Positions 4,537-28,659 of a DNA stretch of 32,000 bases are shown here, piece after piece (positions within the stretch are counted from its first letter, which is position 1; every line of letters starts with the position of its first letter). The DNA lies in the NCBI GenBank assembly GCA_964549275.1, contig CAZJUP010000007.1:17633-49632 (forward strand). Reading direction: 5' to 3'. A model generated the notes under the pieces. The model had not been told where the DNA came from and did not search any database. It was given only the letters and a program-made list of their open reading frames with translations. The translations under genes were made by a program, and so were the position numbers. The stretch comes from an uncultured bacterium (GTDB lineage Bacteria > Fidelibacterota > Marinisomatia > Marinisomatales > TCS55).

Positions 4537-5160
4537 ATGGTTCAATATTTTATAGATGGTGGTCCCTTTATGTGGCCAATATTAATTTCGCTGATCTTTG
4601 GTTTAGCTTTCGTGTTTGAACGATTTTACTCTCTCATCATGTCATCAATTAACTCCCAGAAGTTTTATGAAGACATTTCCGGGACTTTGGACAAAAACGG
4701 TGTTGATGCTGCAGTAACTTTATGCAATGAAACCCGCGGTCCGGTTGCAGAAATTTTTCACGCAGGGCTTTCAAGAACACACCGAGGACTAGACGAAGTG
4801 GAAAAAGCGGTGCAAAATGCAGGTTCCCTTGAAATGTCTTTTCTTGAAAAAAACATGATTTGGCTCAACACCGTCATTACTGTTGCACCCATGATTGGAT
4901 TCACGGGTACTGTTGTGGGAATGATTGCGGCATTTGATGCCATTAAAGCTGCGAATGATATTTCTCCTGCTGTTGTGGCCGGAGGGATTTCCCAGGCACT
5001 GCTTACTACCGCATTTGGTTTAATTACAGCAATGATTGTTCAAATCTTTCAGAACTTTTTCGTCTCAAGAATTGACAGGTTGGTCTTAGACATGGAAGAA
5101 AACTCCGTTAAATTGTTGGACCAGCTATACGAAATTGATTCTAAAAAGAACAAGAAATAA
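4537..5160 (+). CDS. exbB: MotA/TolQ/ExbB-family proton channel (ExbB-like)
   Basis: 207 aa with three TM segments and the conserved C-terminal half 'GFTGTVVGMIAAF...GISQALLTTAFGLITAMIV'. GGAGG lies 8 nt upstream of the ATG. It is followed by two ExbD genes and tonB. Confidence 0.85.
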   Translation: MVQYFIDGGPFMWPILISLIFGLAFVFERFYSLIMSSINSQKFYEDISGTLDKNGVDAAVTLCNETRGPVAEIFHAGLSRTHRGLDEVEKAVQNAGSLEMSFLEKNMIWLNTVITVAPMIGFTGTVVGMIAAFDAIKAANDISPAVVAGGISQALLTTAFGLITAMIVQIFQNFFVSRIDRLVLDMEENSVKLLDQLYEIDSKKNKK

Positions 5161-5167
5161 TTAAACC

Positions 5168-5563
5168 ATGACCGGAAAACGCAGATTTAAAGGGGGAGAG
5201 ATCCCCACCGCATCCATGGCGGATATTGCTTTTCTGCTGCTTATTTTCTTTCTTGTGACAACCACTATTGATATGGATAAGGGGTTGGGTATTGTTTTGC
5301 CGGCAGAGGGACAAGAAATTGAAATTAGCAAAAAGAATATTGTAAACTGCCTGATTAATTCCACTGGGAAGGTATTGCTTGGGGGTGAACCTGTTGAGGT
5401 CCGAAATCTTAATAAGGTTATCCGCCAAAAATTAGCTGAAAATGATAAAATGGTTATCTCCGTTAAGGCCCACGAAAAAACGCCCTACAAAGATTATATT
5501 CTTGTCATTGATCAACTAAAAATGGCTAACGCAACCCGAATTTCCATTGCGGAGACCGGATAA
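5168..5563 (+). CDS. exbD: Biopolymer transport protein ExbD/TolR
   Basis: 131 aa with the typical ExbD N-terminus 'IPTASMADIAFLLLIFFLVTT', including the conserved Asp in the TM helix. Confidence 0.85.
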   Translation: MTGKRRFKGGEIPTASMADIAFLLLIFFLVTTTIDMDKGLGIVLPAEGQEIEISKKNIVNCLINSTGKVLLGGEPVEVRNLNKVIRQKLAENDKMVISVKAHEKTPYKDYILVIDQLKMANATRISIAETG

Positions 5564-5975
5564 TATGAAAATAAAGAAAAAAACCGAAATAAGCAGTGAC
5601 ATTCCAACAGCATCTATGCCGGACATTATTTTTATGCTACTTATTTTCTTCATGGTGACAACTGTTCTTCGTGAATTTTCCGGGCTTCCCATAGATTTAC
5701 CAAAAGCAAAGCGAATTGAAAAACTTAAATCAAAGCGCCACACTTCTCACATATGGGTTTCAAAAGACGGTCTTATCTCTATCGAAGATAAGCTCTATGA
5801 GGCAGAAGCCATTAAACACATCATGTATGATAAACGTGTTGAAGATCCCCAAATAGTTATTTCTCTCAAAGCAGATGAACGAGCAAGAATGGGACTCATT
5901 TCAGAAGTACATTCGCAATTAAGAAAAGCGGATGCCCTGAAATTAAACTACTCATCGAAAACAGCTGTAGATTAA
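5547..5975 (+). CDS. exbD: Biopolymer transport protein ExbD/TolR (second paralogue)
   Basis: 142 aa with 'IPTASMPDIIFMLLIFFMVTT'. It overlaps the preceding exbD by 17 nt. Confidence 0.85.
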   Translation: MRRPDNMKIKKKTEISSDIPTASMPDIIFMLLIFFMVTTVLREFSGLPIDLPKAKRIEKLKSKRHTSHIWVSKDGLISIEDKLYEAEAIKHIMYDKRVEDPQIVISLKADERARMGLISEVHSQLRKADALKLNYSSKTAVD

Positions 5976-5984
5976 GGCAATTTT

Positions 5985-6608
5985 ATGAGATCTGAAAAAT
6001 CAGCTTCACTTAAATATTTATACCCGCTCGTGGTGCGTGCAACCGGATTGCTCGGTATTGTATTGCTTATAACAGCATTTTTGCTTTTTCCCCGGTTCGT
6101 TGCCAAAATGGAGCTGGAAGAAGAGGTGCAAATCGTTATTGAACAAATTGATATTCCACAAACGCAACAATTTGATCGCCCGCCACCCCCCTCAAGACCT
6201 TCTGTCCCCGTTGAATCTGAAAGCGAAGATATTGCAGACGATGTAACTCTGGATGAATTTTCGTTGGATGAGTTTGAATCCTGGGATGCTCCACCGCCAC
6301 CCCCAGAAGGACCCCGGGTAAAATTTATTCCCTATGATGACCCGCCACAACCTCTGAGCCCCATAAGACCGAAATATCCTGAAATTGCTCAAGAGGCTGG
6401 TATTGAAGGAACTGTTGTTGTCCAAGTTTTTGTTGATGATAAGGGGCGCGTTAAAGAAACATCTGTTTTAAAAGGGATTCCGAACACTGGATTGGACGAG
6501 GCGGCGGTTGATGCTATTCGTTCTGTTCGGTTTAAACCAGCAAAACAGCGAGAGCGACCTGTTGGAGTTTGGATATCAATTCCTGTAAACTTCAGATTAA
6601 AAAGTTGA
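5985..6608 (+). CDS. tonB: Energy transducer TonB (Pro-rich spacer plus TonB_C domain)
   Basis: 207 aa with an N-terminal TM anchor, proline-rich stretches (RPPPPSRPSVP, APPPPPEGP) and a C-terminal TonB_C-like 'YPEIAQEAGIEGTVVVQVFVDDKGRV...RFKPA'. Confidence 0.85.
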   Translation: MRSEKSASLKYLYPLVVRATGLLGIVLLITAFLLFPRFVAKMELEEEVQIVIEQIDIPQTQQFDRPPPPSRPSVPVESESEDIADDVTLDEFSLDEFESWDAPPPPPEGPRVKFIPYDDPPQPLSPIRPKYPEIAQEAGIEGTVVVQVFVDDKGRVKETSVLKGIPNTGLDEAAVDAIRSVRFKPAKQRERPVGVWISIPVNFRLKS

Positions 6609-18022: not shown

Positions 18023-19414
18023 TTAAATCGACTCGAACTTCGCAGTAAAGTGTCGTAAAAAAGGAGGTTGTTCAATAATGTTGAATCCTTTCATGGCCTT
18101 TCTCTTTTCATATATACCTCGAGCTACTTCTATCACATAGTCAATGTGGCTTTGGGTGTGCGTTCTCCTGGGAAGGGCCAGCCGGACCAACTCCATTGCT
18201 GCTGGGGTTTCCTGATGTGATCCTTCTATTTTTTTCCCAAACATTACAGAACCAATTTCACATGTTCTTATTCCACCCGCTAAATATAACTCAACGGCCA
18301 AACTTTGCCCTGGATATTGACTGGGCGGAACATGAGGAAGTAATGCTTTTGCGTCCAAATAGACAGCATGCCCACCAGGTGGCTGAATAATGGGGAATCC
18401 CATTTCTGAGAGATGGTCACCAAGATATTGGGCTTCGGCCAAACGATATTTTAAATAGTCTTCTTCCAAGACTTCTTCGAGACCAACAGCTATAGCTTCC
18501 AAATCTCTCCCGGCTAATCCCCCATAAGTTGGAAAGCCTTCAGTCAGAATCAATAAATCTTTTTCTTCTCTTGCCAACTCGTCATTGTTTGTACACAGAA
18601 ATCCTCCAATGTTGGCCAACCCGTCCTTCTTGGCGCTCATGGTACATCCATCGGCAAAGGACATCATTTCTTTCACAATGTCTTTAACTGATTTTTCTTT
18701 GTATCCCGGCTCGCGCAGCTTGATGAAATATGCGTTTTCTGCAAATCTAGCGGCATCAAAGTATAGCGGTATCTTATAAGGGGCTAATACCGCTTTCACT
18801 GCTTTGATGTTTTCCATAGAAACAGGCTGCCCGCCTCCTGAATTATTCGTAACAGTTAGCATGCAGAGAGGAATTTTCTCAGGTCCATTTTTTTGAATAA
18901 GTGATTTAAGTTTTTTTACATCCATATTACCTTTGAATGGATGCACAACCTCAGGATCTTTTCCCTCTTCGATTACTAAATCTTCCGCAGTGGCACCTTG
19001 AAACTCAACATTGGCTCTTGTGGTATCAAAATGAGTGTTATTCGGAACAATATCTCCCGGTTTACACATCACTGAAAACAAAATGCGCTCTGCAGCTCTG
19101 CCTTGATGGGTTGGAATAACATTGGAAAAACCTAATATATCCATTATTGCTGCTTCAAAACGCAAAAAACTGTCGCTTCCTGCATAGGATTCGTCCCCCT
19201 GCATCATGGCTCCCCATTGTTTAGAACTCATCGCACCTGTCCCACTATCTGTTAAAAGGTCTATGAGTACATCCCGAGCTCGAATTTTAAATAAATTATA
19301 ATTAGCATTTTTAACAACATTTTCCCTTTCGTCTCTAGTGGTCATTCGTATTGGTTCCACAGATTTTATAATAAACGGTTCAATTACAGTTCTAAACTCG
19401 TGTTTAATAGACAT
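18023..19414 (-). CDS. tnaA: Tryptophanase (beta-eliminating lyase family; tyrosine phenol-lyase not excluded)
   Basis: 463 aa with 'EPFIIKSVEPIRMTTRDERE', 'DLLTDSGTGAMS', PLP-Lys motif 'MSAKKDGLANIGGFL', 'EGFPTYGGLAGRD' and C-terminal 'LRHFTAKFESI'. The last three are closer to my recollection of E. coli TnaA than of TPL. Confidence 0.85.
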   Translation of the reverse strand: MSIKHEFRTVIEPFIIKSVEPIRMTTRDERENVVKNANYNLFKIRARDVLIDLLTDSGTGAMSSKQWGAMMQGDESYAGSDSFLRFEAAIMDILGFSNVIPTHQGRAAERILFSVMCKPGDIVPNNTHFDTTRANVEFQGATAEDLVIEEGKDPEVVHPFKGNMDVKKLKSLIQKNGPEKIPLCMLTVTNNSGGGQPVSMENIKAVKAVLAPYKIPLYFDAARFAENAYFIKLREPGYKEKSVKDIVKEMMSFADGCTMSAKKDGLANIGGFLCTNNDELAREEKDLLILTEGFPTYGGLAGRDLEAIAVGLEEVLEEDYLKYRLAEAQYLGDHLSEMGFPIIQPPGGHAVYLDAKALLPHVPPSQYPGQSLAVELYLAGGIRTCEIGSVMFGKKIEGSHQETPAAMELVRLALPRRTHTQSHIDYVIEVARGIYEKRKAMKGFNIIEQPPFLRHFTAKFESI

Positions 19415-19439: not shown

Positions 19440-19470
19440 TTAAAAAGCCCCCGAATAGGGGGCTTTTCTT
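19440..19470 (-). terminator. Rho-independent terminator after the FliG-like gene
   Basis: The minus strand reads aaaaGCCCCCtattcGGGGGCttttt. It begins about 15 nt after the stop at 19484 and lies about 26 nt upstream of the tnaA start. Confidence 0.75.
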
Positions 19471-19483
19471 TTACTCTAACGAT

Positions 19484-20416
19484 CTACTCGACCATCTCCG
19501 CCCCACCCAGCAAATCTTCCAAACGGAACGCACCATCTTTCTCCATTTGTTTGGCGGATTGAACTACTATTTTTCGGGCATTGTCAACATCTCGCTTTGG
19601 AATGGCTCCCTCTACAGGTTCATACATAGCCTGTTTTTTTTGTGGGAGATTTTCGATAACCCTCTTTGTGACCGCTTCTGGCATTCCTTTTAAAGCAAGG
19701 GCCACCGAATCCAGTTCAACTGAGTTCATGAGATCGCGCAGTAAGTTGTCCGGCATAATATCAAATATTCCTTCAAAGGTCAGATGGTATTTTTTTACTT
19801 CTTCTGCTAAATCGGGATTTTCTTGAGTAAGGTTTTTTAAAAACCGTATTTCATCTTCAGGATCCATTTCACCTAAAATATCGGCTAAATCTTTTCCTCC
19901 CCCACGAGAAAAAGATACAGTTTTTGGCAAAGATTGAGATTTCTTCTTTAATCTGTTTGCTATCTGAACAACCGCTTCTAATGGCACATCGTTTAAGTTC
20001 CCAATCTCTAACAGCACCTTCCCTTTAATTTCTTGGCGAATTCTGTTTAAAACCACCATCCGTTTTTCAGAAGACAGCTGCGCGACTGTAATGGCAATAA
20101 CCCTTGAAGATTCCGCGCTAAGCATGGCAATAGTTTGCTCATCAGTTAATTCTTCCAAAAAGGCAAATGGCTTTTTTGGTTCGTCGCTGTCCTCTTCTTG
20201 AAATTTCTCACTTACAAAGCTGAAATAAAACTCTTCCATTACCCTTTTTTTTACTGAAAAAGATACCATTTCAACACCTCTCATTGCCGATCGAATTTTA
20301 CGAACCTCGGTTTTGTCCAGGTTTTTTACTAGACTAAGAGCAAGGCTTTCTCCCAATACAGAAAAAAGAATAGCGACTTTTTGCAGTCCAGAAAGACGAT
20401 TATAATCGGTAATCAT
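19484..20416 (-). CDS. FliG-like rotor protein (three-domain FliG homologue, divergent middle-domain motif)
   Basis: 310 aa that aligns by eye along the whole of E. coli FliG. N-terminus 'LSGLQKVAILFSVLGESLALSLVKNLDKTEVRKIRSAM'; Gly-Gly hinge 'RGGGKDLADILGEMD'; 'LTFEGIFDI' at the MFxFE position; C-terminal 'LDSVALALKGMPEAVTKRVIENLPQKK...IPKRDVDNARKIVVQSAKQMEKDGAF'. AAGAGG lies 5 nt upstream of the ATG. Confidence 0.8.
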   Translation of the reverse strand: MITDYNRLSGLQKVAILFSVLGESLALSLVKNLDKTEVRKIRSAMRGVEMVSFSVKKRVMEEFYFSFVSEKFQEEDSDEPKKPFAFLEELTDEQTIAMLSAESSRVIAITVAQLSSEKRMVVLNRIRQEIKGKVLLEIGNLNDVPLEAVVQIANRLKKKSQSLPKTVSFSRGGGKDLADILGEMDPEDEIRFLKNLTQENPDLAEEVKKYHLTFEGIFDIMPDNLLRDLMNSVELDSVALALKGMPEAVTKRVIENLPQKKQAMYEPVEGAIPKRDVDNARKIVVQSAKQMEKDGAFRLEDLLGGAEMVE

Positions 20417-20425
20417 GGGGGCCTC

Positions 20426-21967
20426 TTATTTTTTCTTTTTCTTATTTTTGCCACTTTCATCTTCGGGAGCCTGTTCCGTGGGCGCTTGTTGTTCCTGTTC
20501 TGTTGGTGCTTCTTCCTGTATCCACTCTTTTACAATCTTTTGTGCTGCAGAGGGTTGACCTACGCTCATTGAGACTACCGCCTGCTTCATATCATTAACC
20601 TCGCTTTGGAGAACAGCAATATCTTCTTTGCTTGGTGGACTTTGAACAGCTTCATCAGGCTTTTTTACGGATTTTTTTGTTCCGTTATCACTTTTTTTTT
20701 TCGGTCGAGGTGGATACATCCAAGGTGGTGGAGGCATCATTTGTTGCTTTGGTTTATTCATTAACACAAAAGCAAGGACGACAATCAAGACAATAACCAG
20801 AGCCCCCAACACAGCAATAAAAATGATCATCGCGGTATTTCCGGAACCACCTTGCCGATCTAAGTCCTCCTGTACTGTTTCTAACATAGCTAATTTTTCA
20901 GCAATTTGCTGATCAAGATTTGATTTTTCACCAAGTTTTTTCTGAATTGAAGATTCGGCCTCCGTTACAGCTGAATCGGAAACACCCCCCGCGCCTAAAA
21001 ATGCTTTTAAATTCTGAATTTCTTCATTAAGTGCATTTAATCGAACGGAGTCTCCCCTTAAAATATCCTGCTTTTGCTGTTCATAGGCTCTATCCCTTGC
21101 GCTAGATTCCAACTCTGTTAGTTTTGATTGAAAATACAGGCGATCTTCTTGGCGACGGTCTGCTTCTTCCTGTTTGTAATTTGCCAACTCCTCCTTCCAA
21201 TCGACTTCTCCCAGACGTTCTCTCTGTGTTTCCAGAGACTCGAGTTTTTCTGCAATGCTTTTTAATAAAACTTGTTCTGCGGTTTTTTCATCGCGCCTTT
21301 CCTTAAAAGAGGCTGTCATTATACTAAGCACATCTCCTCGAGCGCGGTTAAACCTTGAAGCAACCATCACGACCTGACGAATATTTTCAATCAGCTCTGG
21401 AGCTGCACCTTCTTGTAGAATAATACTGATCTCTATGTTGCGTATCTTTGCCAAAGCCGGATGTTTTTCTGTGTGTGTTCGAGACAATACATTGTCACTA
21501 GACCATCCGGATTCTATTTTGTTTTCTATATCATTACTTGAAACAGGTTCTTCTAAAGGTCTTGAATCTTCAGTATCAAAATCAAACCCAGGTATGGGAA
21601 GTCCAACACCAGACGAAGGAAGGATGTTTTGACCCTCTTTGCTTGTAGATTCTAACTTGCTGGCATCTAATTCATAATCTGATGGGGTCGGCGCTCCGGA
21701 TTTAAAGGTGGTTTGCTCTTCTACTGCACTGCTGAGTTCGAGGTCCACACTAACATCTACTACATATTTTCTGTTGTCAATTATTTTTTCGAGAGCATCT
21801 GTAATGCGTTTCCGCAGGCTGTTTTCAACCATTAATTTTTGTGCAAGATACCCTCCGGATTGTCCCCATCCAATGCCGATAATCATTATGAAAGTTAGAG
21901 CGGTTATAATTGCTCTTTTAATCCGCATTATCATATAAACTCCCTTATTCATTCTCAGAGGAATCAT
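20426..21967 (-). CDS. FliF-like bitopic ring protein: TM1, single RBM3-like module, long coiled coil, TM2, cytoplasmic tail
   Basis: 513 aa. TM1 is about aa 17-35. 'VENSLRKRITDALEKIIDNRKYVVDVSVDLEL' and 'IRNIEISIILQEGAAPELIENIRQVVMVASRFNRARGDVLSIMTASF' resemble the two halves of FliF RBM3. A heptad-rich, E/K/Q-rich segment spans about aa 222-372, and TM2 is about aa 378-404. The tail 'QPSAAQKIVKEWIQEE' resembles the FliF C-terminal FliG-binding helix. The start forms an ATGA overlap with the motB stop. Confidence 0.65.
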   Translation of the reverse strand: MIPLRMNKGVYMIMRIKRAIITALTFIMIIGIGWGQSGGYLAQKLMVENSLRKRITDALEKIIDNRKYVVDVSVDLELSSAVEEQTTFKSGAPTPSDYELDASKLESTSKEGQNILPSSGVGLPIPGFDFDTEDSRPLEEPVSSNDIENKIESGWSSDNVLSRTHTEKHPALAKIRNIEISIILQEGAAPELIENIRQVVMVASRFNRARGDVLSIMTASFKERRDEKTAEQVLLKSIAEKLESLETQRERLGEVDWKEELANYKQEEADRRQEDRLYFQSKLTELESSARDRAYEQQKQDILRGDSVRLNALNEEIQNLKAFLGAGGVSDSAVTEAESSIQKKLGEKSNLDQQIAEKLAMLETVQEDLDRQGGSGNTAMIIFIAVLGALVIVLIVVLAFVLMNKPKQQMMPPPPWMYPPRPKKKSDNGTKKSVKKPDEAVQSPPSKEDIAVLQSEVNDMKQAVVSMSVGQPSAAQKIVKEWIQEEAPTEQEQQAPTEQAPEDESGKNKKKKK

Positions 21968-22770
21968 CCTCGTTTTTTCTTTCTTTTAGTATTCTGAACT
22001 TCGGATTCAGAAACACCAACGGGTCCACCCCGGGGTGCTAAAAATGTAATTTCTACTCTTCGATTTCTCGCTTTTTGTTCTGCAGTCTGGTTATATTTTT
22101 GAATCAATTCTGGGGTGATTATTTCAGCTGTACTTTTATCTCTTGGGACAAACTCACCATAACCAACCGCTTCTAATCTAGTCGGAGAAATTCCCAATGA
22201 AATCAGTAGCCTTACCACAGCTGCGGCCCTGGCTCCTGACAACTCCCAATTGCTCGGATATTTTACCCTTAATGCCTTGGGAAGGGGATCGCTGTCTGTG
22301 TGGCCTTCTATGGCTACTAAAAAATGAGAGGCCTGTATTGTGGGAACCAACTTTTTTAAAATTTCTAAAAAGGTTGGTTTTGTTTCCGCGGAGCCAGATC
22401 TGAAACTTATATCCGACGAAATTCCAATTGTCACCCCTTTGGGTCCCGTCGAAACTTCAACAGGTTTTTCACCTGTTTTGGGGTCTGCCTCCATTTTTTT
22501 AACCATTTGTTCAGCCGCTTTCTTAATATCAGATAATGACATCGCCTGGCTGTCTTTTTTAATTTTACTTCCAACAGATTTTCCCATTGAATCTGCCATC
22601 TCCTGCAGTTTTACAGGATCGATCGTAGAGATAGCTGCAAGCAAAACAAAAAAGGCAAACAGGAGAGTCATCATATCAGCAAAAGTTCCAAACCACCCCG
22701 GAAGCCCTTCATCGACCTCTTGCATTCCCATTTCCAAAAATTTCTTTTTTTCCTGTGGTGTTACTGCCAT
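21964..22770 (-). CDS. motB: Flagellar-type stator protein MotB (OmpA-like peptidoglycan-binding C-terminus)
   Basis: 268 aa. The N-terminal TM segment carries the conserved Asp ('WFGTFADMMTLLFAFFVLLAA'). The C-terminal OmpA/MotB motif is 'IEGHTDSDP...SNWELSGARAAAVVRLL...LEAVGYGEFVP'. Confidence 0.88.
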   Translation of the reverse strand: MAVTPQEKKKFLEMGMQEVDEGLPGWFGTFADMMTLLFAFFVLLAAISTIDPVKLQEMADSMGKSVGSKIKKDSQAMSLSDIKKAAEQMVKKMEADPKTGEKPVEVSTGPKGVTIGISSDISFRSGSAETKPTFLEILKKLVPTIQASHFLVAIEGHTDSDPLPKALRVKYPSNWELSGARAAAVVRLLISLGISPTRLEAVGYGEFVPRDKSTAEIITPELIQKYNQTAEQKARNRRVEITFLAPRGGPVGVSESEVQNTKRKKKRG

Positions 22771-22775
22771 TCAGA

Positions 22776-23564
22776 TTAGCTCTCGTCTTTTTTCCATTCT
22801 TTTGGCGGAATGTATGAGTTTAATTTTTCTCTGACAATTATTGGGTGTTTCTTCTGATGAATCAAACGAGAAGCTTCTACAAGCATGTTTTGCATCGTGC
22901 TTGTAAAGGTAATCCGAGTTCTGAGTTTATCCGCCATGGGGAGAAAAAACAGATTAGCAAACACCGCTCCATAAAATGTGGTGATTAATGCTGCTGACAT
23001 TCCAGATCCCAATGCTTCCGTTCCACCTCCATCTCCACCAAATCCTGAAAGCATGATAACAAGCCCGATAAGTGTTCCTATCATTCCCCAGGCAGGCGCC
23101 ATAACCCCCATGGATTTAAACAGGCTTGCCTGTGTTTTTTCGCGGACTTCTCTATAATCAATTCTTGTGTATAAAATTTCTGTTAGTTCCTCAAGAGAGT
23201 ATCCATCTACCACCATTTGAACCCCATCCCTAAAAAACGGATTTTTAACGGTATCAATCGATTTTTCAAGTTCAGCAGCCCCTTTTCTCCCTACTTCTGA
23301 TACAGCAACAGCATCTTCCACAACTGTTCCTAAAGTCAATTTACTTCCTTTAAAGACAGCTGCCATTGCCGATCCAAGCTTTAAGACATCCGACAAAGGA
23401 AAAGCCACAGATACAGAGGCAACCATCCCACCAAAGACAATGGCAAAACTAGAAGGAGATAAAAATCCTCCCATTCCCGCGCCAGCTGCAGTTGCGGCCA
23501 ACCAAATCCCCCCTCCAATAGAGCCTAAACCAAGAACAATTCCAATCAGGGTTGCAATATCCAT
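22776..23564 (-). CDS. motA: Flagellar-type stator protein MotA/PomA
   Basis: 262 aa that is collinear with my recollection of Vibrio PomA. 'MDIATLIGIVLGLGSI', cytoplasmic loop 'VGRKGAAELEKSID' (equivalents of the charged R/E), and the conserved prolines in 'VMAPAWGMIGTLIGLV' and 'LFFLPMADKL'. GAGGA lies 6 nt upstream of the ATG. Confidence 0.9.
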   Translation of the reverse strand: MDIATLIGIVLGLGSIGGGIWLAATAAGAGMGGFLSPSSFAIVFGGMVASVSVAFPLSDVLKLGSAMAAVFKGSKLTLGTVVEDAVAVSEVGRKGAAELEKSIDTVKNPFFRDGVQMVVDGYSLEELTEILYTRIDYREVREKTQASLFKSMGVMAPAWGMIGTLIGLVIMLSGFGGDGGGTEALGSGMSAALITTFYGAVFANLFFLPMADKLRTRITFTSTMQNMLVEASRLIHQKKHPIIVREKLNSYIPPKEWKKDES

Positions 23565-23566
23565 AT

Positions 23567-24949
23567 CTAATCCTCAATAAAACTGGTAGATTTTAATCGA
23601 TTTTCGTGCAATGCCTTTAATACATTGCGAACATCATCATATTCCGGATCCATGCGTAAGGCAAGGTTCCAATTAATTGTAGCGCGCTGAATATCTCCCA
23701 ACTTGTAATAAATGGACCCTCTCCTTGCATAGGCTAATGCCAAATTTGGATTAAGGTCCAATGCTGCCTCTACAGATTCTAAAGCGCCACGATAGTCACC
23801 GGCATAAAAATAGCGAAGGGATCTTGATAAATGCCGCATGGCATCATTCATATTTTTTTCGCTTACATTCCGATTTAGCTTCACGGCTTTCAATGAATCT
23901 TCTAAAAACTTTGAATGCTGCTCCATTGCGGCAAGCCGAGTCATGAGATTGCGCATTTCGTTTGTCATCATTCCCATGGAGTCTCGCAACGTGTGAACAG
24001 CAACATCTGCCATAAGGAGCGTTGAGTCCATATCTGCTGGATAGCCTCCTGCTGAGCGCGTTCCGGGAAGAACTAGCCCCGGCTGTTCGGGTGTTGGTGC
24101 CGGCCCACCGCCAGGGAGACGACGAAGAGATGCTCCCCTTGGAACCGACATATCCATGCCCAAGGTGATTCCCGGATGTCCTTTCCAATAACGAGAGTTC
24201 CATGAAGGTAATTTTTCTATGTGGGTGAACCCAAGGTTCAGGCGGTAATCCGAGGTAAGGGGGATGCGGAGTCCCACATTGATACCTGTACCATCGAATT
24301 CACCCACAATATCTATTCCACCCCATTTTTCAAAATAAGGTGTGTTAACAATAACCCCCGCAAAAACGCCGGCTCTGGTACCAGAGGAACTGCTCGTATC
24401 TGCTACAGATAATGTATCAGCCGCTCCAAAGCCCCCAGTTCCAAAGCCAATAAACGTATTCATGTCATATTGACCGAGTTTTTTCTCACTATTCACAACA
24501 CCGAAAAACGACAATTCTTTCGGGTCAAGTCTTAATCCGCTTGTGCCCGCATTTTCAAAAACAATATCCTGCAACCCAACAGAAAAGGAGACGTCATTAT
24601 ATATAAACACCCGTTGTTGAAAATGGAACCCAAACTCAACCGGTGCCCTATAGGTTGACACTTCAAGGTTTGCAAGGGAGGTTGTGTCTGCACCCTGAAT
24701 AGATGAAAAACCGAAAATTGTATTTTTCCCGAACTCCATATTGAAGTACGCACCCTTGGCTGTGTTAAAGGGAGCCATATTATGAATTTCCGAACCAAAC
24801 CCCACCCTGAACAAATATGGCGACTTAGACACTGAGCTAAACGGAATTCTCATCATAGGACCAGGTCGAGTATAAGCGACCCGGGTTGCGCTAAATCCTA
24901 CAGAGGATAAAGAAATTATTATAATTACGAATACAAAAAATCGTTTCAT
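23567..24949 (-). CDS. Secreted beta-rich domain protein with Pro/Gly linker, helical segment and C-terminal TPR repeats
   Basis: 460 aa with signal peptide MKRFFVFVIIIISLSSVGFSA. The N-terminal ~250 aa is Gly/Phe/Thr-rich with alternating patterns (possible beta-barrel). Linker 'LPGGGPAPTPEQPGLVLPG', then TPR-like 'YFYAGDYRGALESVEAALDLNPNLALAYARRGSIYYKLGDIQRATINWNLALRMDPEY'. Confidence 0.6.
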   Translation of the reverse strand: MKRFFVFVIIIISLSSVGFSATRVAYTRPGPMMRIPFSSVSKSPYLFRVGFGSEIHNMAPFNTAKGAYFNMEFGKNTIFGFSSIQGADTTSLANLEVSTYRAPVEFGFHFQQRVFIYNDVSFSVGLQDIVFENAGTSGLRLDPKELSFFGVVNSEKKLGQYDMNTFIGFGTGGFGAADTLSVADTSSSSGTRAGVFAGVIVNTPYFEKWGGIDIVGEFDGTGINVGLRIPLTSDYRLNLGFTHIEKLPSWNSRYWKGHPGITLGMDMSVPRGASLRRLPGGGPAPTPEQPGLVLPGTRSAGGYPADMDSTLLMADVAVHTLRDSMGMMTNEMRNLMTRLAAMEQHSKFLEDSLKAVKLNRNVSEKNMNDAMRHLSRSLRYFYAGDYRGALESVEAALDLNPNLALAYARRGSIYYKLGDIQRATINWNLALRMDPEYDDVRNVLKALHENRLKSTSFIED

Positions 24950-25851
24950 GGCATGACTTCTGCTTTTTTTATTTCCATTTGTGCTAATCGCACATATTCA
25001 CTTGCGGGATGCTGATTCACAATACTGGAGAAAGCATTAAGCGCCTTTGTTTCCATTCCCATTTTTCTATAAAGTAGGCCTTTTTGAACAATGGCGTCCA
25101 CAGTTCTTTCTGCCCCATCCTCTTCAATCCTCTTCAACAGAGACAAAGAAGATGAATAGTCTCCGATCTGCTGGTAGGCATCGGCCATCCAATAGCGAAT
25201 GTTCTCGGCTGTTTTCTTTGGAGCTAAATCAAGACTTAATTGATTAAACTTATCCAATGCGCTTTCAAAGTCTTCCCTTTGATACGCAAAAACTCCTGAC
25301 ATATATAACGACGAATCAAAAAGCCTGGCTGGAGTTCTGGTGTTTTTGACTTCAACAACATCCAGATTGTGACCTATTGGTTTTTCTGGTTTTTTCTGTT
25401 TAGGCTGCAGGATTATTTCTTTATCCACAGCCAAATCAGCTGAACTGTCCGTTTTTTGGTTTTTTGGAGGGTTTTTTTGAAGAGCAACAAGAGATTTTCG
25501 AAGTTCAGTGTTTTCGATTTTTAACTCTTTCATTTCTTTTCGAAAAGATGTTTCAAGTAGTTCAATTCGACGATTAATCCTTTCAAGGGCTCCTATCATT
25601 TCTTTTGAGGACGCCATATATACTGAGCCGCTTTCCACCTTTTTAACACGGAAATTAACCTCTTCTGATGTCGGTTTAATTACACGAGAGTAGGTGACTT
25701 TTTCATCCACCGGTTCGATAACAATACCCAAATCCAAAAAAAATATATCAGAAATTGGAGCCGGTTCAGTTTGGGTAAAAACAGCGCCGAAAAGCGCAAA
25801 CCCGACAACGGATTTTATCCAGGGTTTACAACTTAAGGCTACTTTACCCAT
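24946..25851 (-). CDS. CpoB/YbgF-like periplasmic protein (N-terminal coiled coil plus C-terminal TPR)
   Basis: 301 aa with a signal/anchor segment. Coiled coil 'LERINRRIELLETSFRKEMKELKIENTELRKSLVALQ', a Lys/Pro-rich spacer, then TPR-like 'AYQREDFESALDKFNQL...IRYWMADAYQQIGDYSSSLSLL...NQHPASEYVRLAQMEI'. This architecture matches the Tol-Pal accessory protein CpoB. ATGA overlap with the downstream gene. Confidence 0.55.
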   Translation of the reverse strand: MGKVALSCKPWIKSVVGFALFGAVFTQTEPAPISDIFFLDLGIVIEPVDEKVTYSRVIKPTSEEVNFRVKKVESGSVYMASSKEMIGALERINRRIELLETSFRKEMKELKIENTELRKSLVALQKNPPKNQKTDSSADLAVDKEIILQPKQKKPEKPIGHNLDVVEVKNTRTPARLFDSSLYMSGVFAYQREDFESALDKFNQLSLDLAPKKTAENIRYWMADAYQQIGDYSSSLSLLKRIEEDGAERTVDAIVQKGLLYRKMGMETKALNAFSSIVNQHPASEYVRLAQMEIKKAEVMP

Positions 25852-26993
25852 TATTCATATTCCTCCCAATCAATGACATAAGAATATCCAATAAATGACC
25901 CAAAATCGTGGGGTACATATAATTCAAATGCACCAGATGCGCCCGGGAGTAACGTGGCATCAGTTGTTATACCTGAATCAAATGTGTGATACCCTCCTCT
26001 GATAAATGTTGTTAGTGTCTTAGTCTCTCCGCTCCAGTTTGTTCTAAATACGAAATCTACTTTCACAAAATCTGCTCTTCGGCCACCAATGTTTTTTATT
26101 TCACCTGTAAAAACAACATTCCCCTGAGCGTCTTTCTTTTCACTTATATTTCCGACTAAGACACAGTTTGCAGAATATTTTTTGGTTCCGGATTTTTCTG
26201 AGGCTGTCGAGGTATATTTCGGCTCTGCGAGCTTTGGCATTGGGGGCGGTGTATAGCTATCGCGAACCTGTTCGGGTACATATTCCTGCTGTTCTTCGGT
26301 AACAACATTATCAATTATTCGAACAATATCTTTTCGCTGGATAATTAAATACCCCACCAGCGTTTCGACTTTTAGCGATTCCTCGTCTTGGTATACCACT
26401 TTTCCAAACACCGTGGACCCGTTTTTAAGGATAATCTCTTTTGAATAAATCGCCAGGGGGTTAACCCACATTTTACTTAATGCTTTTAGGTTTTCAAGTT
26501 CCTCGTTAAGATATTTTAACTCTGCGGTCATTTTTTTAACCTCAAAACTGAGTTCATTTAAAACATAGTCTTTCCCCGGGTCAGGTTTAAATTCAATATC
26601 CTCCGGACCTGGGCCTTCAACGTTTACTGTATCTGTTGATACATTAGTAGTAGATTGTTCTAGCCCTAATACTACTTCTCCCAGTTTTACATTATCGTCA
26701 ACCACTTCAAGGGGAAGGTGAACTTTTCCTGATTCACCTGCGTCAGATTCAATAATATATTTTCCGGGAAGTACTTTTTTAAATTCAAATTTGCCACCAC
26801 CCCGGCCTAACCGTTTTTTTGACGATTCGGTCCTCTGCGCTTCTGTTCCGTCTTCCTTCAACAGCAGCACGGCTGTTTTTGCAACACCCTTGCCCTTTTC
26901 ATCGATCAGTTGTCCTGAAACTTTGAAGGAATCCTTAGCAAATATATTAGATACAAATACGGTGAGGGCCACCACATATAATATTCTTTTCAT
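25851..26993 (-). CDS. Secreted protein with N-terminal CarboxypepD_reg-like beta-sandwich, coiled coil and C-terminal beta-sandwich-like domain
   Basis: 380 aa with signal peptide MKRILYVVALTVFVSNIFA. 'FKVSGQLIDEKGKGVAKTAVLLLKEDG...KFEFKKVLPGKYIIES' resembles the carboxypeptidase-regulatory-like fold. A short coiled coil is 'VKKMTAELKYLNEELENLKAL'. The C-terminal part is 'VFTGEIKNIGGRRADFVKVDFVF...GAFELYVP'. TAATG overlap with the downstream gene. Confidence 0.55.
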   Translation of the reverse strand: MKRILYVVALTVFVSNIFAKDSFKVSGQLIDEKGKGVAKTAVLLLKEDGTEAQRTESSKKRLGRGGGKFEFKKVLPGKYIIESDAGESGKVHLPLEVVDDNVKLGEVVLGLEQSTTNVSTDTVNVEGPGPEDIEFKPDPGKDYVLNELSFEVKKMTAELKYLNEELENLKALSKMWVNPLAIYSKEIILKNGSTVFGKVVYQDEESLKVETLVGYLIIQRKDIVRIIDNVVTEEQQEYVPEQVRDSYTPPPMPKLAEPKYTSTASEKSGTKKYSANCVLVGNISEKKDAQGNVVFTGEIKNIGGRRADFVKVDFVFRTNWSGETKTLTTFIRGGYHTFDSGITTDATLLPGASGAFELYVPHDFGSFIGYSYVIDWEEYE

Positions 26994-27142: not shown

Positions 27143-27700
27143 CTATTTCCAAAAATCTTCAAATGTTTTTTTTCGCCGAAGAAGCACACTTCTCTCTGCT
27201 TCAACGCGCTGTCTCAATGTGTCCGATAAGGTGCGTTGAAGAGCTTTATCATAGGATTCTAAAGCCAGTTCAAAATCTGAATCATCTTTTTTTTCATAAC
27301 ACTTAGCCATCCAATAGTGGGGTTCTCCGGCAGTATCAATTGCTGTGGCAGCTTGACCAAAACAAACCAAAGCTTCCCATTGGGCATTTTTATAGTTTTT
27401 TTGTAATAACCGGTGACCATCTATCATAGCAAGTTCATATCGTGCCACGGTGTTTTTGGGGTCCAACTTGAGGACTTTTTTATACTCAAACTCGGCGCCT
27501 ATGGAAGTTTTCGCTAAATTTAAATGAGCAGTAACTAAAGCAGATTTCAGTTCTGCATCACCAGGGCGTTTTGCCAATAAGGAATCTTCTGCCGCAACCA
27601 ATAGGGCGGGATCTTTCTTTGCCATCACCATGGGTGACGGGGCACACCCGAAGATAATAACAATGACCAATAAACCCAAAAAATTGTGCTTATTTAGCAT
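27143..27700 (-). CDS. Lipoprotein with TPR-like repeats
   Basis: 185 aa with signal plus lipobox-like 'LLVIVIIFGC'. TPR-like helices 'YKKVLKLDPKNTVARYELAMIDG', 'HYWMAKCYEKKDDSDFELALESYDKALQ'. Confidence 0.6.
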   Translation of the reverse strand: MLNKHNFLGLLVIVIIFGCAPSPMVMAKKDPALLVAAEDSLLAKRPGDAELKSALVTAHLNLAKTSIGAEFEYKKVLKLDPKNTVARYELAMIDGHRLLQKNYKNAQWEALVCFGQAATAIDTAGEPHYWMAKCYEKKDDSDFELALESYDKALQRTLSDTLRQRVEAERSVLLRRKKTFEDFWK

Positions 27701-27726: not shown

Positions 27727-28659
27727 CTATCCTGCAAAGCTAAACAAATTATTATTGTCTTTAAATGCAGAATATACCGCCGACATGGAATCGGCCACAT
27801 AGTAACGATCCTGAATTTCACTGTAATCGAATCGTGTCATTACAATTTCCTCAATATCAAAAGGCAAAAACTTCGAGCGGTTCGACTCTCTTTTTGCACA
27901 TTTTACAATGTTGGATGTTTCATCAAAAGAGGAAATAATTCCAGCTCCGTATATTTCAAACTCAATATCATTGTCCTTTCTTCTGAATTTATCAGCAGAT
28001 CCTGTATTTTTTATTAATCCAAATTCATAGGTCCACCAGGCAAAATTCTGAAGTCGTTTCAAATTGTGAGAAACCAACTCGGGGCCTAAATCGTTTTCAT
28101 CTTTTAAAATTTTAAACCCCAGCAATCCCACGTCGTGCAAAAAGTCCGCATACTTTTTATTCATTAAAAAGGGGACGTGTCCTTGAATATCATGAAATAT
28201 GTCCGGTTCTGGGGTGTATCCTTCATCGTTTTGTATTTTTACCCCTTCGTACTTTTCAGAAAAGCGCGGGGATTTTCTTATGATATCCGTTACGGGAAAC
28301 TTTCTCCGCCTGTTCAAATCAAAAAACAATTCTTCATCTAAAAAACCCGATACGGGAATAAGTTCCCAACCTGTAGAATTTTCTATGATGGGTGAAATAG
28401 CTTCAAACTCTGGAAATCGATCGTGGGGTATTGGAAGAGCTCTCATTCCCATAAGATATTCTCTTGATGCATATTGATTCAACAGTGGTTCTAAATTAAT
28501 AAAAAGGTTTTCCCAAATACTGTTCTCTAAGTTATTCACATTTCCGTAGTCTTGGGGTTTGAGATAATCATCCTTAGTCCCAAATATTTGAATTCCCCGT
28601 ACAGCGTGTGGCACTACATTTTGAAAAAGGTGATCGTACTGAGTGTGTTGTTCTGTCAT
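27727..28659 (-). CDS. phhA: Phenylalanine-4-hydroxylase (biopterin-dependent aromatic amino acid hydroxylase)
   Basis: 310 aa with iron-binding 2-His-1-carboxylate context 'EPDIFHDIQGHVPFL', 'FAWWTYEFGLI' and 'YGAGIISS'. Confidence 0.85.
   Translation of the reverse strand: MTEQHTQYDHLFQNVVPHAVRGIQIFGTKDDYLKPQDYGNVNNLENSIWENLFINLEPLLNQYASREYLMGMRALPIPHDRFPEFEAISPIIENSTGWELIPVSGFLDEELFFDLNRRRKFPVTDIIRKSPRFSEKYEGVKIQNDEGYTPEPDIFHDIQGHVPFLMNKKYADFLHDVGLLGFKILKDENDLGPELVSHNLKRLQNFAWWTYEFGLIKNTGSADKFRRKDNDIEFEIYGAGIISSFDETSNIVKCAKRESNRSKFLPFDIEEIVMTRFDYSEIQDRYYVADSMSAVYSAFKDNNNLFSFAG

What the first reader, a model, noticed from the sequence alone, without database searches (positions are those of the whole stretch)
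19484..20416. FliG homologue keeps the hinge and torque-helix scaffold but has lost the EHPQ motif
My by-eye alignment to E. coli FliG is collinear for all three domains. At the position of the conserved middle-domain 'EHPQ' motif (E. coli 'RDEHPQIIATILVHL'), which contacts FliM, this protein reads 'SAESSRVIAITVAQL'. The Gly-Gly hinge ('RGGGKDLADIL') is recognisable, as are the C-domain landmarks: 'ALKG', and Lys/Arg at the positions I align with K264, R281 and R297. The acidic pair D288/D289 is not clearly retained. MotA keeps its R/E loop ('VGRKGAAELEKS'). Loss of the FliM interface while stator-facing features are kept is what one would expect for a rotor with no switch complex.
Basis: partly seen in the sequence, partly recalled or inferred. 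Interest (0 to 1): 0.75.

Follow-up and report, generated by a model that had tools for sequence, protein, structure and literature searches.

The report
Flagellar-type rotor without a flagellum
This gene encodes a divergent relative of the flagellar rotor protein FliG. It sits in a conserved operon with a stripped-down FliF ring protein, MotA/MotB and exported TPR proteins but no other flagellar genes, so it looks like an undescribed ion-driven rotary machine that is not a flagellum.

Summary
ORF 19484-20416(-) is a three-domain FliG homologue by Pfam and by predicted fold. The EHPQ motif aligns to ESSR. The Gly-Gly hinge is kept. The K264 and R281 equivalents are invariant. MotA keeps R90 and E98.

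Three corrections apply. The motif's Glu is kept, and Pro is kept in about half of 81 relatives. The partner residue R160 is replaced, mostly by Glu. The torque helix is 3-4 residues shorter, yet it is the most conserved stretch of the protein.

The gene ends a tight operon: exported protein, two TPR proteins, MotA, MotB, a FliF-like protein with only the S-ring (RBM3) domain, then the FliG-like protein. This order is syntenic in the 80 Marinimicrobia (SAR406) loci wherever the contig is long enough, and in a deep-branching MAG. No other flagellar gene lies within 10 kb on either side of the gene in any of them.

Relatives in Oceanospirillales and other proteobacterial MAGs, and in an Elusimicrobiota MAG, fuse the FliF-like and FliG-like parts into one protein. 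In the Oceanospirillales loci examined, a homologous TPR lipoprotein and MotAB sit beside the fusion.

The best reading is a rotor protein of a switch-less, flagellum-independent rotor-stator machine. Its output is unknown. Genome-wide absence of FliM/FliN could not be tested. I found no description of it in the literature I could search.

The parts
19484..20416 (-). FliG-like rotor protein, 310 aa, with N, M and C domains
   Evidence: Pfam FliG_N/M/C all above their cut-offs. TIGR00207 scores 106.5 against a cut-off of 226.7. Foldseek top 21 PDB hits are all FliG. Intact in 81/81 loci.
20102..20113 (-). ESSR at the position of the EHPQ FliM-binding motif (aa 102-105)
   Evidence: Family tetrapeptides are EEPR, ETPR, EDTR and similar, never EHPQ.
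19892..19912 (-). Gly-Gly(-Gly) hinge FSRGGGK (aa 169-175)
   Evidence: Aligned to E. coli G194-G195. Nearly invariant in the family. Coordinates checked.
19592..19648 (-). Shortened torque-helix region LPQKKQAMYEPVEGAIPKR (aa 257-275), the most conserved stretch of the protein
   Evidence: The AF2 model shows a short helix at 259-264 followed by a loop at 265-273.
19442..19468 (-). Terminator-like hairpin (11-bp stem followed by a T run) 16 nt after the FliG-like stop codon; marks the operon end
20426..21967 (-). FliF-like ring protein, 513 aa. Layout: TM1, RBM3/S-ring domain with a collar-like insertion, a charged region of about 150 aa that looks like coiled coil, TM2, and a cytoplasmic tail carrying a FliG_N-binding-like motif. 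No RBM1/RBM2.
   Evidence: Only Pfam YscJ_FliF_C is hit. The TIGR00206 match covers model positions 241-448 only. The AF2 model's top 18 Foldseek PDB hits are all FliF S-ring/RBM3. The C-tail 'SVGQP..A..IV..W' is conserved and resembles E. coli 'DPRVVALVIRQWI'.
21964..22770 (-). MotB-type stator subunit with plug, invariant Asp in 'FADMMTLL', and an OmpA-like peptidoglycan-binding domain
22776..23564 (-). MotA-type stator subunit with four TM segments; R90, E98, P173 and P222 equivalents are kept
23567..24949 (-). Exported 460-aa protein with a signal peptide, a beta-rich N-terminal domain, a helical linker and C-terminal TPRs. The TPR part is homologous to the TPR lipoprotein of the gammaproteobacterial module.
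   Evidence: blastp E = 1e-15. hhalign probability 98.8%. Syntenic in the related loci.
24946..25851 (-). Exported 301-aa protein with coiled-coil and TPR regions (YbgF/BamD-like repeats)
25851..26993 (-). Exported 380-aa protein with no Pfam family; first gene of the tightly packed operon
   Evidence: Gene overlaps and gaps range from -4 to +9 nt.
27143..27700 (-). Small TPR lipoprotein (lipobox IFGC) 149 nt upstream. It is less conserved, so its membership in the system is uncertain.
   Evidence: (29-57% identity, absent from some loci).

Best explanation
The ORF encodes a FliG-family rotor protein that belongs to a flagellum-independent rotor-stator machine, not to a flagellum.

Shown:
- It has the three FliG domains and the FliG fold.
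- It is the last gene of a tight operon: exported protein, two exported TPR proteins, MotA, MotB, FliF-like, FliG-like.
- The FliF-like protein keeps two TM helices, the S-ring (RBM3) domain and a C-terminal tail resembling the FliG_N-binding tail. It lacks the RBM1/RBM2 domains.
- The stator keeps the plug, the channel Asp, the OmpA-like domain, and MotA R90 and E98.
- The FliG-like protein keeps Lys at K264 and R281, acidic residues in a strongly conserved but shortened torque region, and the Gly-Gly hinge.
- The FliM-docking EHPQR positions other than Glu, and the MFXF switch motif, are replaced and under relaxed constraint.

Inferred mechanism:
- FliF-like subunits form a membrane ring whose cytoplasmic tails carry a ring of FliG-like subunits.
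- Peptidoglycan-anchored MotA5B2-type units, possibly Na+-driven, turn this ring through charge contacts between MotA (R92, E100) and the FliG-like C domain (K243, K260/K261, E266/E269, K274/R275).
- Without FliM/FliN/CheY input the ring is probably unidirectional.
- The periplasmic S-ring-like part, with its coiled-coil extension, transmits the motion to the co-encoded exported TPR and outer-membrane-associated proteins. This would power an envelope or cell-surface process that remains unidentified.
For: - Domain and fold membership.
- Operon structure: gaps of -4 to +9 nt; terminator after the last gene.
- Conservation: synteny in the 80 Marinimicrobia loci wherever the contig is long enough, at 55-78% FliG-like identity, and in a deep-branching Marinimicrobia MAG.
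- No flagellar gene among 2,262 neighbouring ORFs, whereas a canonical fliG sits in flgBC-fliEFGHIJ.
- FliF-like is RBM3-only.
- Stator residues.
- Site-by-site comparison with 52 canonical FliGs.
- Constraint: EHPQR positions 0.54, torque region 0.90, protein mean 0.73.
- The EHPQR motif is the FliM site, and H145E and R179H mutants are Mot- or Fla- (PMC6290876).
- Homologous modules with natural FliF::FliG fusions, a homologous TPR lipoprotein and MotAB lie among housekeeping genes in Thalassolituus and Bermanella. Fusions also occur in other proteobacterial MAGs and an Elusimicrobiota MAG.
- The FliG-like and fusion clades separate from canonical FliG with 90% NJ bootstrap support.
Against: - No experiment or image shows a ring or rotation.
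- Genome-wide absence of FliM/FliN and of the other flagellar genes in these Marinimicrobia was not tested.
- The acidic pair D288/D289 is not strictly retained in this clade, because the torque helix is shortened and contains Pro267. Coupling to MotA may therefore differ from the canonical case or be absent.
- The output device is unidentified.
- The outer-membrane location of the TPR proteins rests only on signal peptides and sequence character.
- The tree is NJ, built against a canonical sample chosen for similarity to the query, so the clade's depth and rooting are uncertain.
Confidence: 0.6

Rival explanations
1. It is the ordinary FliG of a flagellated Marinimicrobia lineage. The rest of the flagellar genes, including a divergent FliM/FliN, lie elsewhere in the genome, and the EHPQ change co-evolved with the partner.
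For: The protein passes all three Pfam FliG domain cut-offs and sits next to a FliF-like gene and motAB. JGI annotations call its relatives 'flagellar motor switch protein FliG'. Genome-wide gene content was not checked.
Against: - The FliF-like partner lacks RBM1/RBM2. In flagella these domains surround the export gate (established knowledge).
- No flagellar gene occurs in 1.26 Mb of neighbourhoods from 80 species.
- FliM-site positions are less conserved than average rather than conserved in a new state.
- TIGR00207 scores far below its cut-off.
- The sister clade occurs as a separate module in Thalassolituus and Bermanella, genera I know as flagellated. That last point rests on my own knowledge and was not tested here.
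Confidence: 0.07
2. The FliF-like/FliG-like assembly does not rotate. It is a static membrane platform that recruits and gates MotAB units. It might act as a regulated ion channel, an envelope-stress or mechanosensing device, or a peptidoglycan/outer-membrane tether, with the TPR proteins serving as a scaffold.
For: The torque helix is shortened and broken by Pro267. No axial or output structure is encoded. TPR proteins are typical scaffolds, as shown by weak hits to YbgF, BamD and the collar protein FlcA.
Against: The stator-facing charges on both partners are the most conserved parts of the proteins: MotA R92 and E100, and FliG-like K243, K260/K261, E266, E269, K274/R275. Every known MotA5B2-type unit works by rotation (PMC9389320; PMC12704724, listed). 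The ring-forming RBM3 domain is kept.
Confidence: 0.17
3. It is a decaying relic of a lost flagellum with no present function.
For: Non-functional flagellar remnants are known in non-motile species, and 11% of non-motile species carry a rotor protein without a filament (PMC12199754).
Against: The ORFs are intact and the gene order is the same in 81/81 (FliG-like) and 62-69 (partner genes) loci across phylum-level divergence. Functional motifs are invariant. Gene packing is tight and a terminator follows the last gene. The architecture is shared independently in other phyla.
Confidence: 0.03
4. It is an MgtE-type Mg2+-sensing N-domain protein rather than a FliG.
For: Pfam MgtE_N scores 44 bits at aa 176-263, above its cut-off.
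Against: That hit overlaps FliG_C, which scores higher. There is no CBS or MgtE membrane domain. Foldseek puts MgtE cytoplasmic domains at E of about 1 or worse, below 21 FliG chains. The gene context is FliF-like plus MotAB.
Confidence: 0.01

Closest known systems
Flagellar rotor protein FliG (E. coli/Salmonella, T. maritima, A. aeolicus; PDB 1LKV, 3HJL, 8UMD/8UMX)
   Same: Three armadillo-type domains N/M/C, the Gly-Gly linker, 'ALKG' Lys264, a basic residue at R281, basic residues near R297, invariant E125, and a position directly downstream of a FliF-type gene.
   Different: About 20-25% identity. TIGR00207 scores 106 against a cut-off of 227. The H126/Q128/R160 FliM-binding residues are replaced (x/R/E), and P127 is kept in only about half of the family. 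MFXF reads HLTF. The torque helix is 3-4 residues shorter and carries a conserved Pro. No fliH/I/J/M/N genes lie nearby.
Flagellar motor core: MS-ring (FliF), FliG and the MotA5B2 stator
   Same: The same four protein families are present: a FliF S-ring/RBM3 fold, a FliF C-tail motif, the MotB plug, Asp and OmpA domain, and MotA R90/E98.
   Different: FliF lacks RBM1/RBM2. No export gate, ATPase, rod, hook, filament, P/L-ring or C-ring (FliM/FliN) genes are in the cluster. Three to four exported TPR or unknown proteins are encoded in their place. The FliF-like protein carries a periplasmic region of about 150 aa that looks like coiled coil.
Engineered FliF-FliG fusion proteins of Salmonella and Vibrio (PMC11481574 and related papers)
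   Same: Relatives of this system in Oceanospirillales, other proteobacterial MAGs and an Elusimicrobiota MAG are natural single-chain FliF-like::FliG-like proteins. This fits 1:1 ring assembly, as in the engineered fusions.
   Different: The natural fusions lack RBM1/2 and the EHPQR residues, and they sit in a five-gene non-flagellar module. In the window the two parts are separate genes.
Non-flagellar 5:2 ion-driven motors: GldLM/PorLM of the type IX secretion/gliding system, ExbBD-TonB, TolQR, Zorya ZorAB (PMC9389320, PMC8986121)
   Same: In function: a MotA/ExbB-family stator unit in the inner membrane is proposed to power a periplasmic or outer-membrane process without a filament. TPR/OM partners are encoded alongside it.
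   Different: Those systems have no FliG or FliF ring, because their stator units act directly through a periplasmic arm. Here the stator is a true MotAB type facing a FliG. There is no PADLOC ZorA/C/D match. A separate ExbBD-TonB set is encoded elsewhere in the window.
TPR scaffold proteins of elaborated flagellar motors (Campylobacter PflA/PflB, spirochaete collar FlcA)
   Same: Exported TPR proteins are encoded with, and presumably positioned around, MotAB stators. There is a weak NCBIfam hit to the FlcA C-terminal domain (E = 1.3e-3).
   Different: Only generic TPR similarity was found, and no orthology is shown. The resemblance is partly recalled from my own knowledge, so it is a lead and not a test.
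MgtE cytoplasmic N domain
   Same: It shares a superhelical fold with FliG_M/C, and Pfam MgtE_N is hit.
   Different: There is no CBS or transporter domain. Structural similarity is far weaker than to FliG.

Membership tests
FliG (Pfam FliG_N/FliG_M/FliG_C superfamily) | All three FliG domains present, collinear and above the gathering scores | tested here: met
   52, 33 and 62 bits against cut-offs of 25, 25 and 23.3.
FliG (Pfam FliG_N/FliG_M/FliG_C superfamily) | FliG three-dimensional fold | tested here: met
   AF2 pLDDT 83. Foldseek top 21 PDB hits are all FliG, and single domains reach TMt 0.8-0.88.
Flagellar motor switch protein FliG (equivalog, TIGR00207) | Score at or above the curated equivalog cut-off | tested here: not met
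   106.5 bits against a cut-off of 226.7. NF004260 scores 29 against 550.
Flagellar motor switch protein FliG (equivalog, TIGR00207) | EHPQR FliM-binding motif (E125, H126, P127, Q128, R160) | tested here: not met
   The window has E-S-S-R and E137. Family counts are E 79/81, H 0/81, P 45/81, Q 0/81, and R160 replaced by E in 53/81. The motif definition comes from PMC6290876.
Flagellar motor switch protein FliG (equivalog, TIGR00207) | Gly-Gly linker between helix MC and the C domain | tested here: met
   G172-G173(-G174), nearly invariant.
Flagellar motor switch protein FliG (equivalog, TIGR00207) | MFXF motif used in CW/CCW switching | tested here: not met
   HLTF in the window; HLTF, RITF or HLTW in the family. 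Canonical counts are M 42/52, F 48/52 and F 51/52.
Flagellar motor switch protein FliG (equivalog, TIGR00207) | Charged torque-helix residues K264, R281, D288, D289 and R297 | tested here: inconclusive
   K243 and K260 are invariant, and K274/R275 lie next to R297. D288/D289 fall in a 3-4-residue deletion with conserved E266, P267 and E269. Other Marinimicrobia orders keep R, D and E without the deletion.
Flagellar motor switch protein FliG (equivalog, TIGR00207) | Encoded within a flagellar gene cluster (fliE/F/G/H/I/J) and co-occurring with fliM/fliN | tested here: not met
   No such genes are in the window or in the 80 loci. The canonical control locus L086 shows them. This holds at neighbourhood level only.
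Bacterial flagellum (whole system) | FliM/FliN, export gate, and rod, hook and filament genes somewhere in the genome | not testable with these tools
Bacterial flagellum (whole system) | FliF with RBM1 and RBM2 (Pfam YscJ_FliF, PF01514) | tested here: not met
   Only PF08345 is hit. The TIGR00206 match is limited to model positions 241-448. Fold matches are S-ring/RBM3 only.
Bacterial flagellum (whole system) | MotA/MotB stator with plug, channel Asp, peptidoglycan-binding domain and the rotor-facing R90/E98 | tested here: met
MgtE N-terminal domain proteins | MgtE_N followed by CBS pairs and the MgtE membrane domain | tested here: not met
   Only an MgtE_N hit that overlaps FliG_C, and TIGR00400 at 15 bits. 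MgtE structures rank far below FliG.
Zorya anti-phage system | ZorA (a MotA-like protein with a long tail) together with ZorB and ZorC/D or ZorE | tested here: not met
   No ZorA, ZorC, ZorD or ZorE match. The only hits are generic MotB-to-ZorB similarity.

The most novel reading that the evidence does not exclude
The operon encodes a free-standing rotary nanomachine built from flagellar motor parts (an RBM3-only FliF ring, a switch-less FliG and MotAB) that never carries a flagellum. It would turn a periplasmic ring to drive an outer-membrane or cell-surface process through its TPR partners. It is present across the SAR406/Marinimicrobia phylum and, as FliF::FliG fusions, in Oceanospirillales, other proteobacterial MAGs and Elusimicrobiota. 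It could be either an exaptation of the motor or a descendant of the pre-flagellar rotor-stator module.
Probability: 0.45. Interest if true: 0.9.

Novelty: new variant of a known kind. Interest (0 to 1): 0.78.

Why it matters
Apart from the ATPases, the bacterial flagellar motor is the textbook rotary machine. Its rotor proteins FliF and FliG are regarded as flagellum-specific. [quoted passage not shown] This locus gives that question a concrete, testable candidate.

- It is a compact operon conserved across one of the most abundant deep-ocean phyla, with relatives in cultivable gammaproteobacteria (Thalassolituus, Bermanella) where genetics and cryo-ET are feasible.
- If it rotates, it would be a new use of the MotAB-FliG interface and a natural minimal rotor without a switch.
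- It would also bear on how the flagellar motor was assembled from modules.
- Practically, metagenomic pipelines that use fliG as a marker of flagellar motility will wrongly score SAR406 as motile. Relatives of this protein are already annotated 'flagellar motor switch protein FliG', and fliG is used as a motility marker in, for example, PMC10359470.

Tried and rejected
1. EHPQ elsewhere in the protein. None of the 81 sequences contains EHP anywhere.
2. tblastn and phmmer with E. coli FliM/N/H/I/P/E/L, and with FlgB/C and FliE/H/I/J from a canonical cluster, against the window and 80 loci. Only the FliG-like and FliF-like genes were hit. This covers neighbourhoods only.
3. Genome-wide FliM/FliN test. 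Supplementary tables of PMC12199754 gave no usable Marinimicrobia gene table. Papers on Marinimicrobia/Marinisomatota said nothing specific about flagella, and a search for Fidelibacter plus flagella found no papers.
4. Literature searches for a description of the module, using FliG-like, FliF-FliG fusion, non-flagellar FliG, flagellar motor-like and similar terms. All ten searches found only engineered fusions and general reviews.
5. Anti-phage Zorya. Rejected by PADLOC.
6. MgtE. Rejected.
7. Homology between the 380-aa exported protein, or the N-terminal domain of the 460-aa protein, and the gammaproteobacterial 356-383-aa protein. hhalign probability was below 2%, so no homology is shown.
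8. A first tree script with Biopython timed out and was replaced by my own NJ code.
9. The afdb50 fold library was unavailable.
10. A global alignment of the full FliF-like protein to the fusions (A2) misaligned the C-terminal half. It was not used for modelling, and the N-terminal 245 aa (A3) were used instead.
Full report
**What is at the coordinates.**
The minus-strand ORF 19484-20416 (310 aa, ATG) is real. It matches Pfam FliG_N (aa 8-79), FliG_M (aa 94-164) and FliG_C (aa 195-299), each above its gathering score. It reaches only 106.5 bits on the FliG equivalog model TIGR00207, whose cut-off is 226.7. phmmer against PDB sequences finds only FliG chains. It aligns T. maritima 'LQSEHPQTIAVVLSYL' to 'LSAESSRVIAITVAQL' and 'FSKVGGIDTAAEIM' to 'FSRGGGKDLADIL'. 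It aligns 'SKRAAALLKDELEYMGPVRLKDV' to 'PQKKQAMYE.PVE..GAIPKRDV'. An AlphaFold2 model built on a 78-sequence alignment has mean pLDDT 83. Its top 21 Foldseek PDB matches are all FliG, and MgtE domains rank far below.

**Residue-level check against canonical FliG.**
I aligned 26 close relatives and 33 divergent Marinimicrobia relatives. I added 53 long relatives and 52 canonical FliGs of 325-360 aa, including E. coli.
- In the canonical set, E125 is 52/52, H126 37/52, P127 51/52, Q128 49/52 and R160 48/52. Together these five residues form the 'EHPQR' FliM-binding surface. Mutants such as H145E and R179H (Vibrio numbering) are non-motile or non-flagellate (PMC6290876).
- In 81 orthologues of the window protein, the Glu is kept in 79/81. 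His and Gln never occur. Pro is kept in 45/81. Position 128 is mostly Arg, and the R160 position is Glu in 53/81. No member has EHP anywhere.
- The four changed positions are less conserved than the protein average (0.54 against 0.73). In canonical FliG they are among the most conserved (0.89 against 0.47). That is the pattern expected after loss of a binding partner.
- The hinge (0.97) and the torque-helix region LP[QK]KKQAM[YF]EPVEG..KR (0.90, many columns invariant) are the most constrained parts.
- The K264 and R281 equivalents are invariant Lys, and K274/R275 sit beside the R297 position.
- The acidic pair lies in a 3-4-residue deletion flanked by conserved E266, P267 and E269. Other Marinimicrobia orders keep R281, D288 and E289 with no deletion.
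- The MFXF switching motif reads HLTF.
- MotA keeps R90 (R92), E98 (E100), P173 and P222, and MotB keeps its channel Asp.

**Surroundings.**
The gene is the last of a tightly packed minus-strand operon, with gaps of -4 to +9 nt. A strong terminator-like hairpin at 19468-19442 follows it. From upstream to downstream the operon encodes:
- an exported 380-aa protein with no Pfam family;
- an exported 301-aa protein with coiled-coil and TPR regions;
- an exported 460-aa protein with a beta-rich N-terminal domain and C-terminal TPRs;
- MotA;
- MotB, with plug and OmpA-like domain;
- a 513-aa FliF-like protein;
- the FliG-like protein.

A small TPR lipoprotein lies 149 nt further upstream.

The FliF-like protein has two TM helices and matches only the C-terminal FliF Pfam family. 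Its TIGR00206 match covers model positions 241-448 only. A model of its first 245 residues gives an alpha-beta-(disordered insertion)-beta-alpha-beta domain. The top 18 PDB matches of that model are all FliF S-ring/RBM3 structures. It has no RBM1/RBM2, the part of FliF that surrounds the export gate in flagella (established knowledge). Its cytoplasmic tail, 'SVGQP..A..IV..W', is conserved. The tail resembles the E. coli FliF C-terminus 'DPRVVALVIRQWI', which binds FliG_N (the binding role is from knowledge of PDB 5TDY-type complexes).

**Related sequences.**
The organism is a member of Marinimicrobia (SAR406, Marinisomatota, Fidelibacterota). The 80 loci from GTDB species representatives, nearly all labelled Marinimicrobia, uncultured bacterium or similar, carry a 55-78% identical protein. 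Wherever the contig is long enough, the block from the 380-aa protein through TPR, TPR, MotA, MotB and FliF-like to FliG-like is in the same order, while the flanking genes vary. A deep-branching Marinimicrobia MAG has the same block with one extra TPR gene. Across the window plus 80 loci (1.26 Mb of loci, 2,262 ORFs of at least 80 aa), tblastn and phmmer were run with E. coli FliM, FliN, FliH, FliI, FliP, FliE and FliL. phmmer was also run with FlgB/C and FliE/H/I/J from a canonical cluster. These searches hit nothing except the FliG-like and FliF-like genes. A canonical fliG fetched as a control sits in flgB-flgC-fliE-fliF-fliG-fliH-fliI-fliJ.

**A wider family.**
An exhaustive HMMER search of 1.84 billion cluster representatives found 29 clusters at E below 1e-30. 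After the full-length and fragmentary close relatives, most of the next hits were proteins of 600-780 aa, not ordinary FliGs. These long proteins are natural FliF-like::FliG-like fusions. In order they contain a signal or TM segment, the same RBM3-type domain with the shared 'LP..GLP' and 'RGD' motifs, a TM helix, and the tail motif 'GLGQPQ'. FliG N, M and C domains follow. They carry E-x-x-R/K at the EHPQ site and Glu at the R160 position.

They occur in Oceanospirillales (Bermanella, Oceaniserpentilla, Thalassolituus hydrocarboniclasticus). They also occur in other gammaproteobacterial MAGs, a 'Deltaproteobacteria' MAG and an Elusimicrobiota MAG. In Thalassolituus and Bermanella the gene lies in a five-gene module amid housekeeping genes. 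The module encodes a 356-383-aa exported protein ending in an outer-membrane-barrel-like '...LTLG[VY]RF', a TPR lipoprotein, the fusion, MotA and MotB. The TPR lipoprotein is specifically homologous to the TPR end of the window's 460-aa protein (blastp E = 1e-15; hhalign probability 98.8%, against 48-56% for the other TPR proteins). In an NJ tree, the Marinimicrobia and fusion clades separate from the canonical sample in 90/100 bootstraps. That sample is biased and the method is simple, so the rooting remains open.

**Most likely mechanism.**
Several things are shown. A FliG-fold protein has a conserved stator-facing surface and a degenerate FliM surface. It is co-encoded and co-conserved with a ring-type FliF fragment, a complete MotAB stator and exported TPR proteins. 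These parts are fused or adjacent in several phyla.

The mechanism itself is inferred:
- The FliF-like protein forms a membrane ring, and each tail holds one FliG-like subunit. The natural fusions argue for 1:1 stoichiometry.
- Peptidoglycan-anchored MotA5B2-type units rotate and push on the FliG-like C domains through the conserved Lys/Glu residues and MotA R92/E100.
- Without a FliM/FliN/CheY switch, and without the MFXF motif, the ring probably turns in one direction only.
- The periplasmic S-ring-like domain, which in Marinimicrobia carries a charged region of about 150 aa that looks like coiled coil between RBM3 and TM2, passes the motion to the TPR and outer-membrane-associated partners.

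What the machine finally does (surface movement, secretion, or envelope or particle-attachment functions) cannot be read from the sequence. I put 0.6 on 'rotor protein of a switch-less, flagellum-independent rotor-stator module'.

The main rivals are:
- a non-rotating platform that gates MotAB (0.17);
- an ordinary flagellar FliG with the rest of the flagellum encoded elsewhere (0.07);
- a functionless relic (0.03);
- an MgtE-like sensor (0.01).

**Comparison with what is known.**
The protein belongs to the FliG superfamily by domains and fold. It fails four features that define the flagellar switch protein: the equivalog score, the EHPQR motif, the MFXF motif and the flagellar gene context. 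I therefore do not file it as 'flagellar motor switch protein FliG', even though relatives carry that annotation. In function it resembles the torque-receiving half of FliG. At system level it is closest to the MS-ring/FliG/MotAB core of the flagellar motor. In logic it resembles the filament-less 5:2 motors, GldLM of type IX secretion, Ton and Tol (PMC9389320, PMC8986121). It is not a member of any of these, because none of them has a FliG or FliF ring. PADLOC finds no Zorya components. Ten full-text searches found engineered FliF-FliG fusions and a general remark that rotor proteins occur without filaments (PMC12199754). None described this module. The library does not cover most subscription journals, so prior description cannot be excluded.

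**Limits.**
Genome-wide absence of FliM/FliN and other flagellar genes was not tested. No structure of a complex, no expression data and no experiment are available. The outer-membrane placement of the TPR proteins and the coiled-coil character of the FliF-like insert rest on sequence character only. The Na+ hint rests on my recollection of PomA residues. It also draws on the best NCBIfam hits, MotP and PomA, and on 'GMIGTLIG' and 'LITTFYG' where E. coli has 'GIVAAVMG' and 'MVGTFLG'.

**Verdict.**
It is a conserved flagellar-type rotor-stator operon without a flagellum, a new variant of a known kind of machine. Interest is 0.78.

Noticed in passing
L082 10001-11908; L083 10001-11950; proteins P0155, P0165, P0173, P0189: Natural single-chain FliF-like::FliG-like fusion proteins of 600-780 aa occur in Oceanospirillales (Thalassolituus, Bermanella), other proteobacterial MAGs and an Elusimicrobiota MAG. 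In the Oceanospirillales loci examined they lie in a five-gene module with a TPR lipoprotein and MotAB, amid housekeeping genes.
   Followed up: partly
window 4537-6608 (+): A separate ExbB-ExbD(-ExbD)-TonB cluster, another member of the 5:2 ion-driven motor family, is encoded 16 kb from the MotAB operon. The MotAB pair is therefore not the cell's Ton motor.
   Followed up: partly
window 22776-23564 (-), MotA aa 155-200: MotA's best NCBIfam hits are the Na+-type MotP and PomA. It has Thr-containing 'GMIGTLIG' and 'LITTFYG' where E. coli MotA has 'GIVAAVMG' and 'MVGTFLG'. This may indicate a sodium-driven stator, but the reading relies on my recollection of the PomA ion-site residues.
   Followed up: no
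window 20852-21295 (-), FliF-like aa 225-372: A charged, heptad-like, poorly conserved region of about 150 residues lies between the RBM3 domain and the second TM helix. Family length varies from 477 to 617 aa, and the gammaproteobacterial fusions lack this region. It may be a periplasmic coiled-coil extension of the ring.
   Followed up: partly
window 24140-24949 (-), 460-aa protein aa 1-270; L082 8220-9290: The N-terminal domain of the 460-aa TPR protein is beta-rich behind a signal peptide. The separate 356-383-aa protein of the gammaproteobacterial module ends in an outer-membrane-barrel-like '...LTLG[VY]RF'. No homology between the two was detectable (hhalign probability below 2%).
   Followed up: partly
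window 19442-19468: A perfect 10-11-bp GC-rich hairpin with T runs on both strands, a bidirectional terminator-like site, lies between the FliG-like gene and the downstream tryptophanase-like gene.
   Followed up: yes
FliG-like model mf2dadd2e112a: The AF2 monomer superposes better on clockwise-state Salmonella FliG (8WIW, 8UMX, 8VIB; TMq 0.52-0.57) than on counter-clockwise-state chains (8WO5, 8UMD, 9N49; 0.30-0.33). This may only reflect model bias.
   Followed up: no
window 25851-26993 (-), 380-aa protein: This protein has no Pfam family, and NCBIfam gives only weak hits to Leptospira-specific domains (LA_0442/LA_0875 N-terminal domain, LIC_13076 family). Its C-terminal 100 aa look like an FxLYD-type beta-sandwich, though that is my reading and was not tested.
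   Followed up: no
L011 (labelled Terriglobia MAG); P0118 (labelled Caldithrix abyssi): Copies 75-77% identical to the window protein sit in records assigned to other phyla. These are probably mis-binned or mislabelled Marinimicrobia contigs.
   Followed up: no
window 18023-19414 (-) and 27727-28659 (-): The operon is flanked by a beta-eliminating lyase (tryptophanase/tyrosine phenol-lyase type) and a biopterin-dependent aromatic amino-acid hydroxylase. Both recur next to the operon in a subset of the related loci. No functional link is evident.
   Followed up: no
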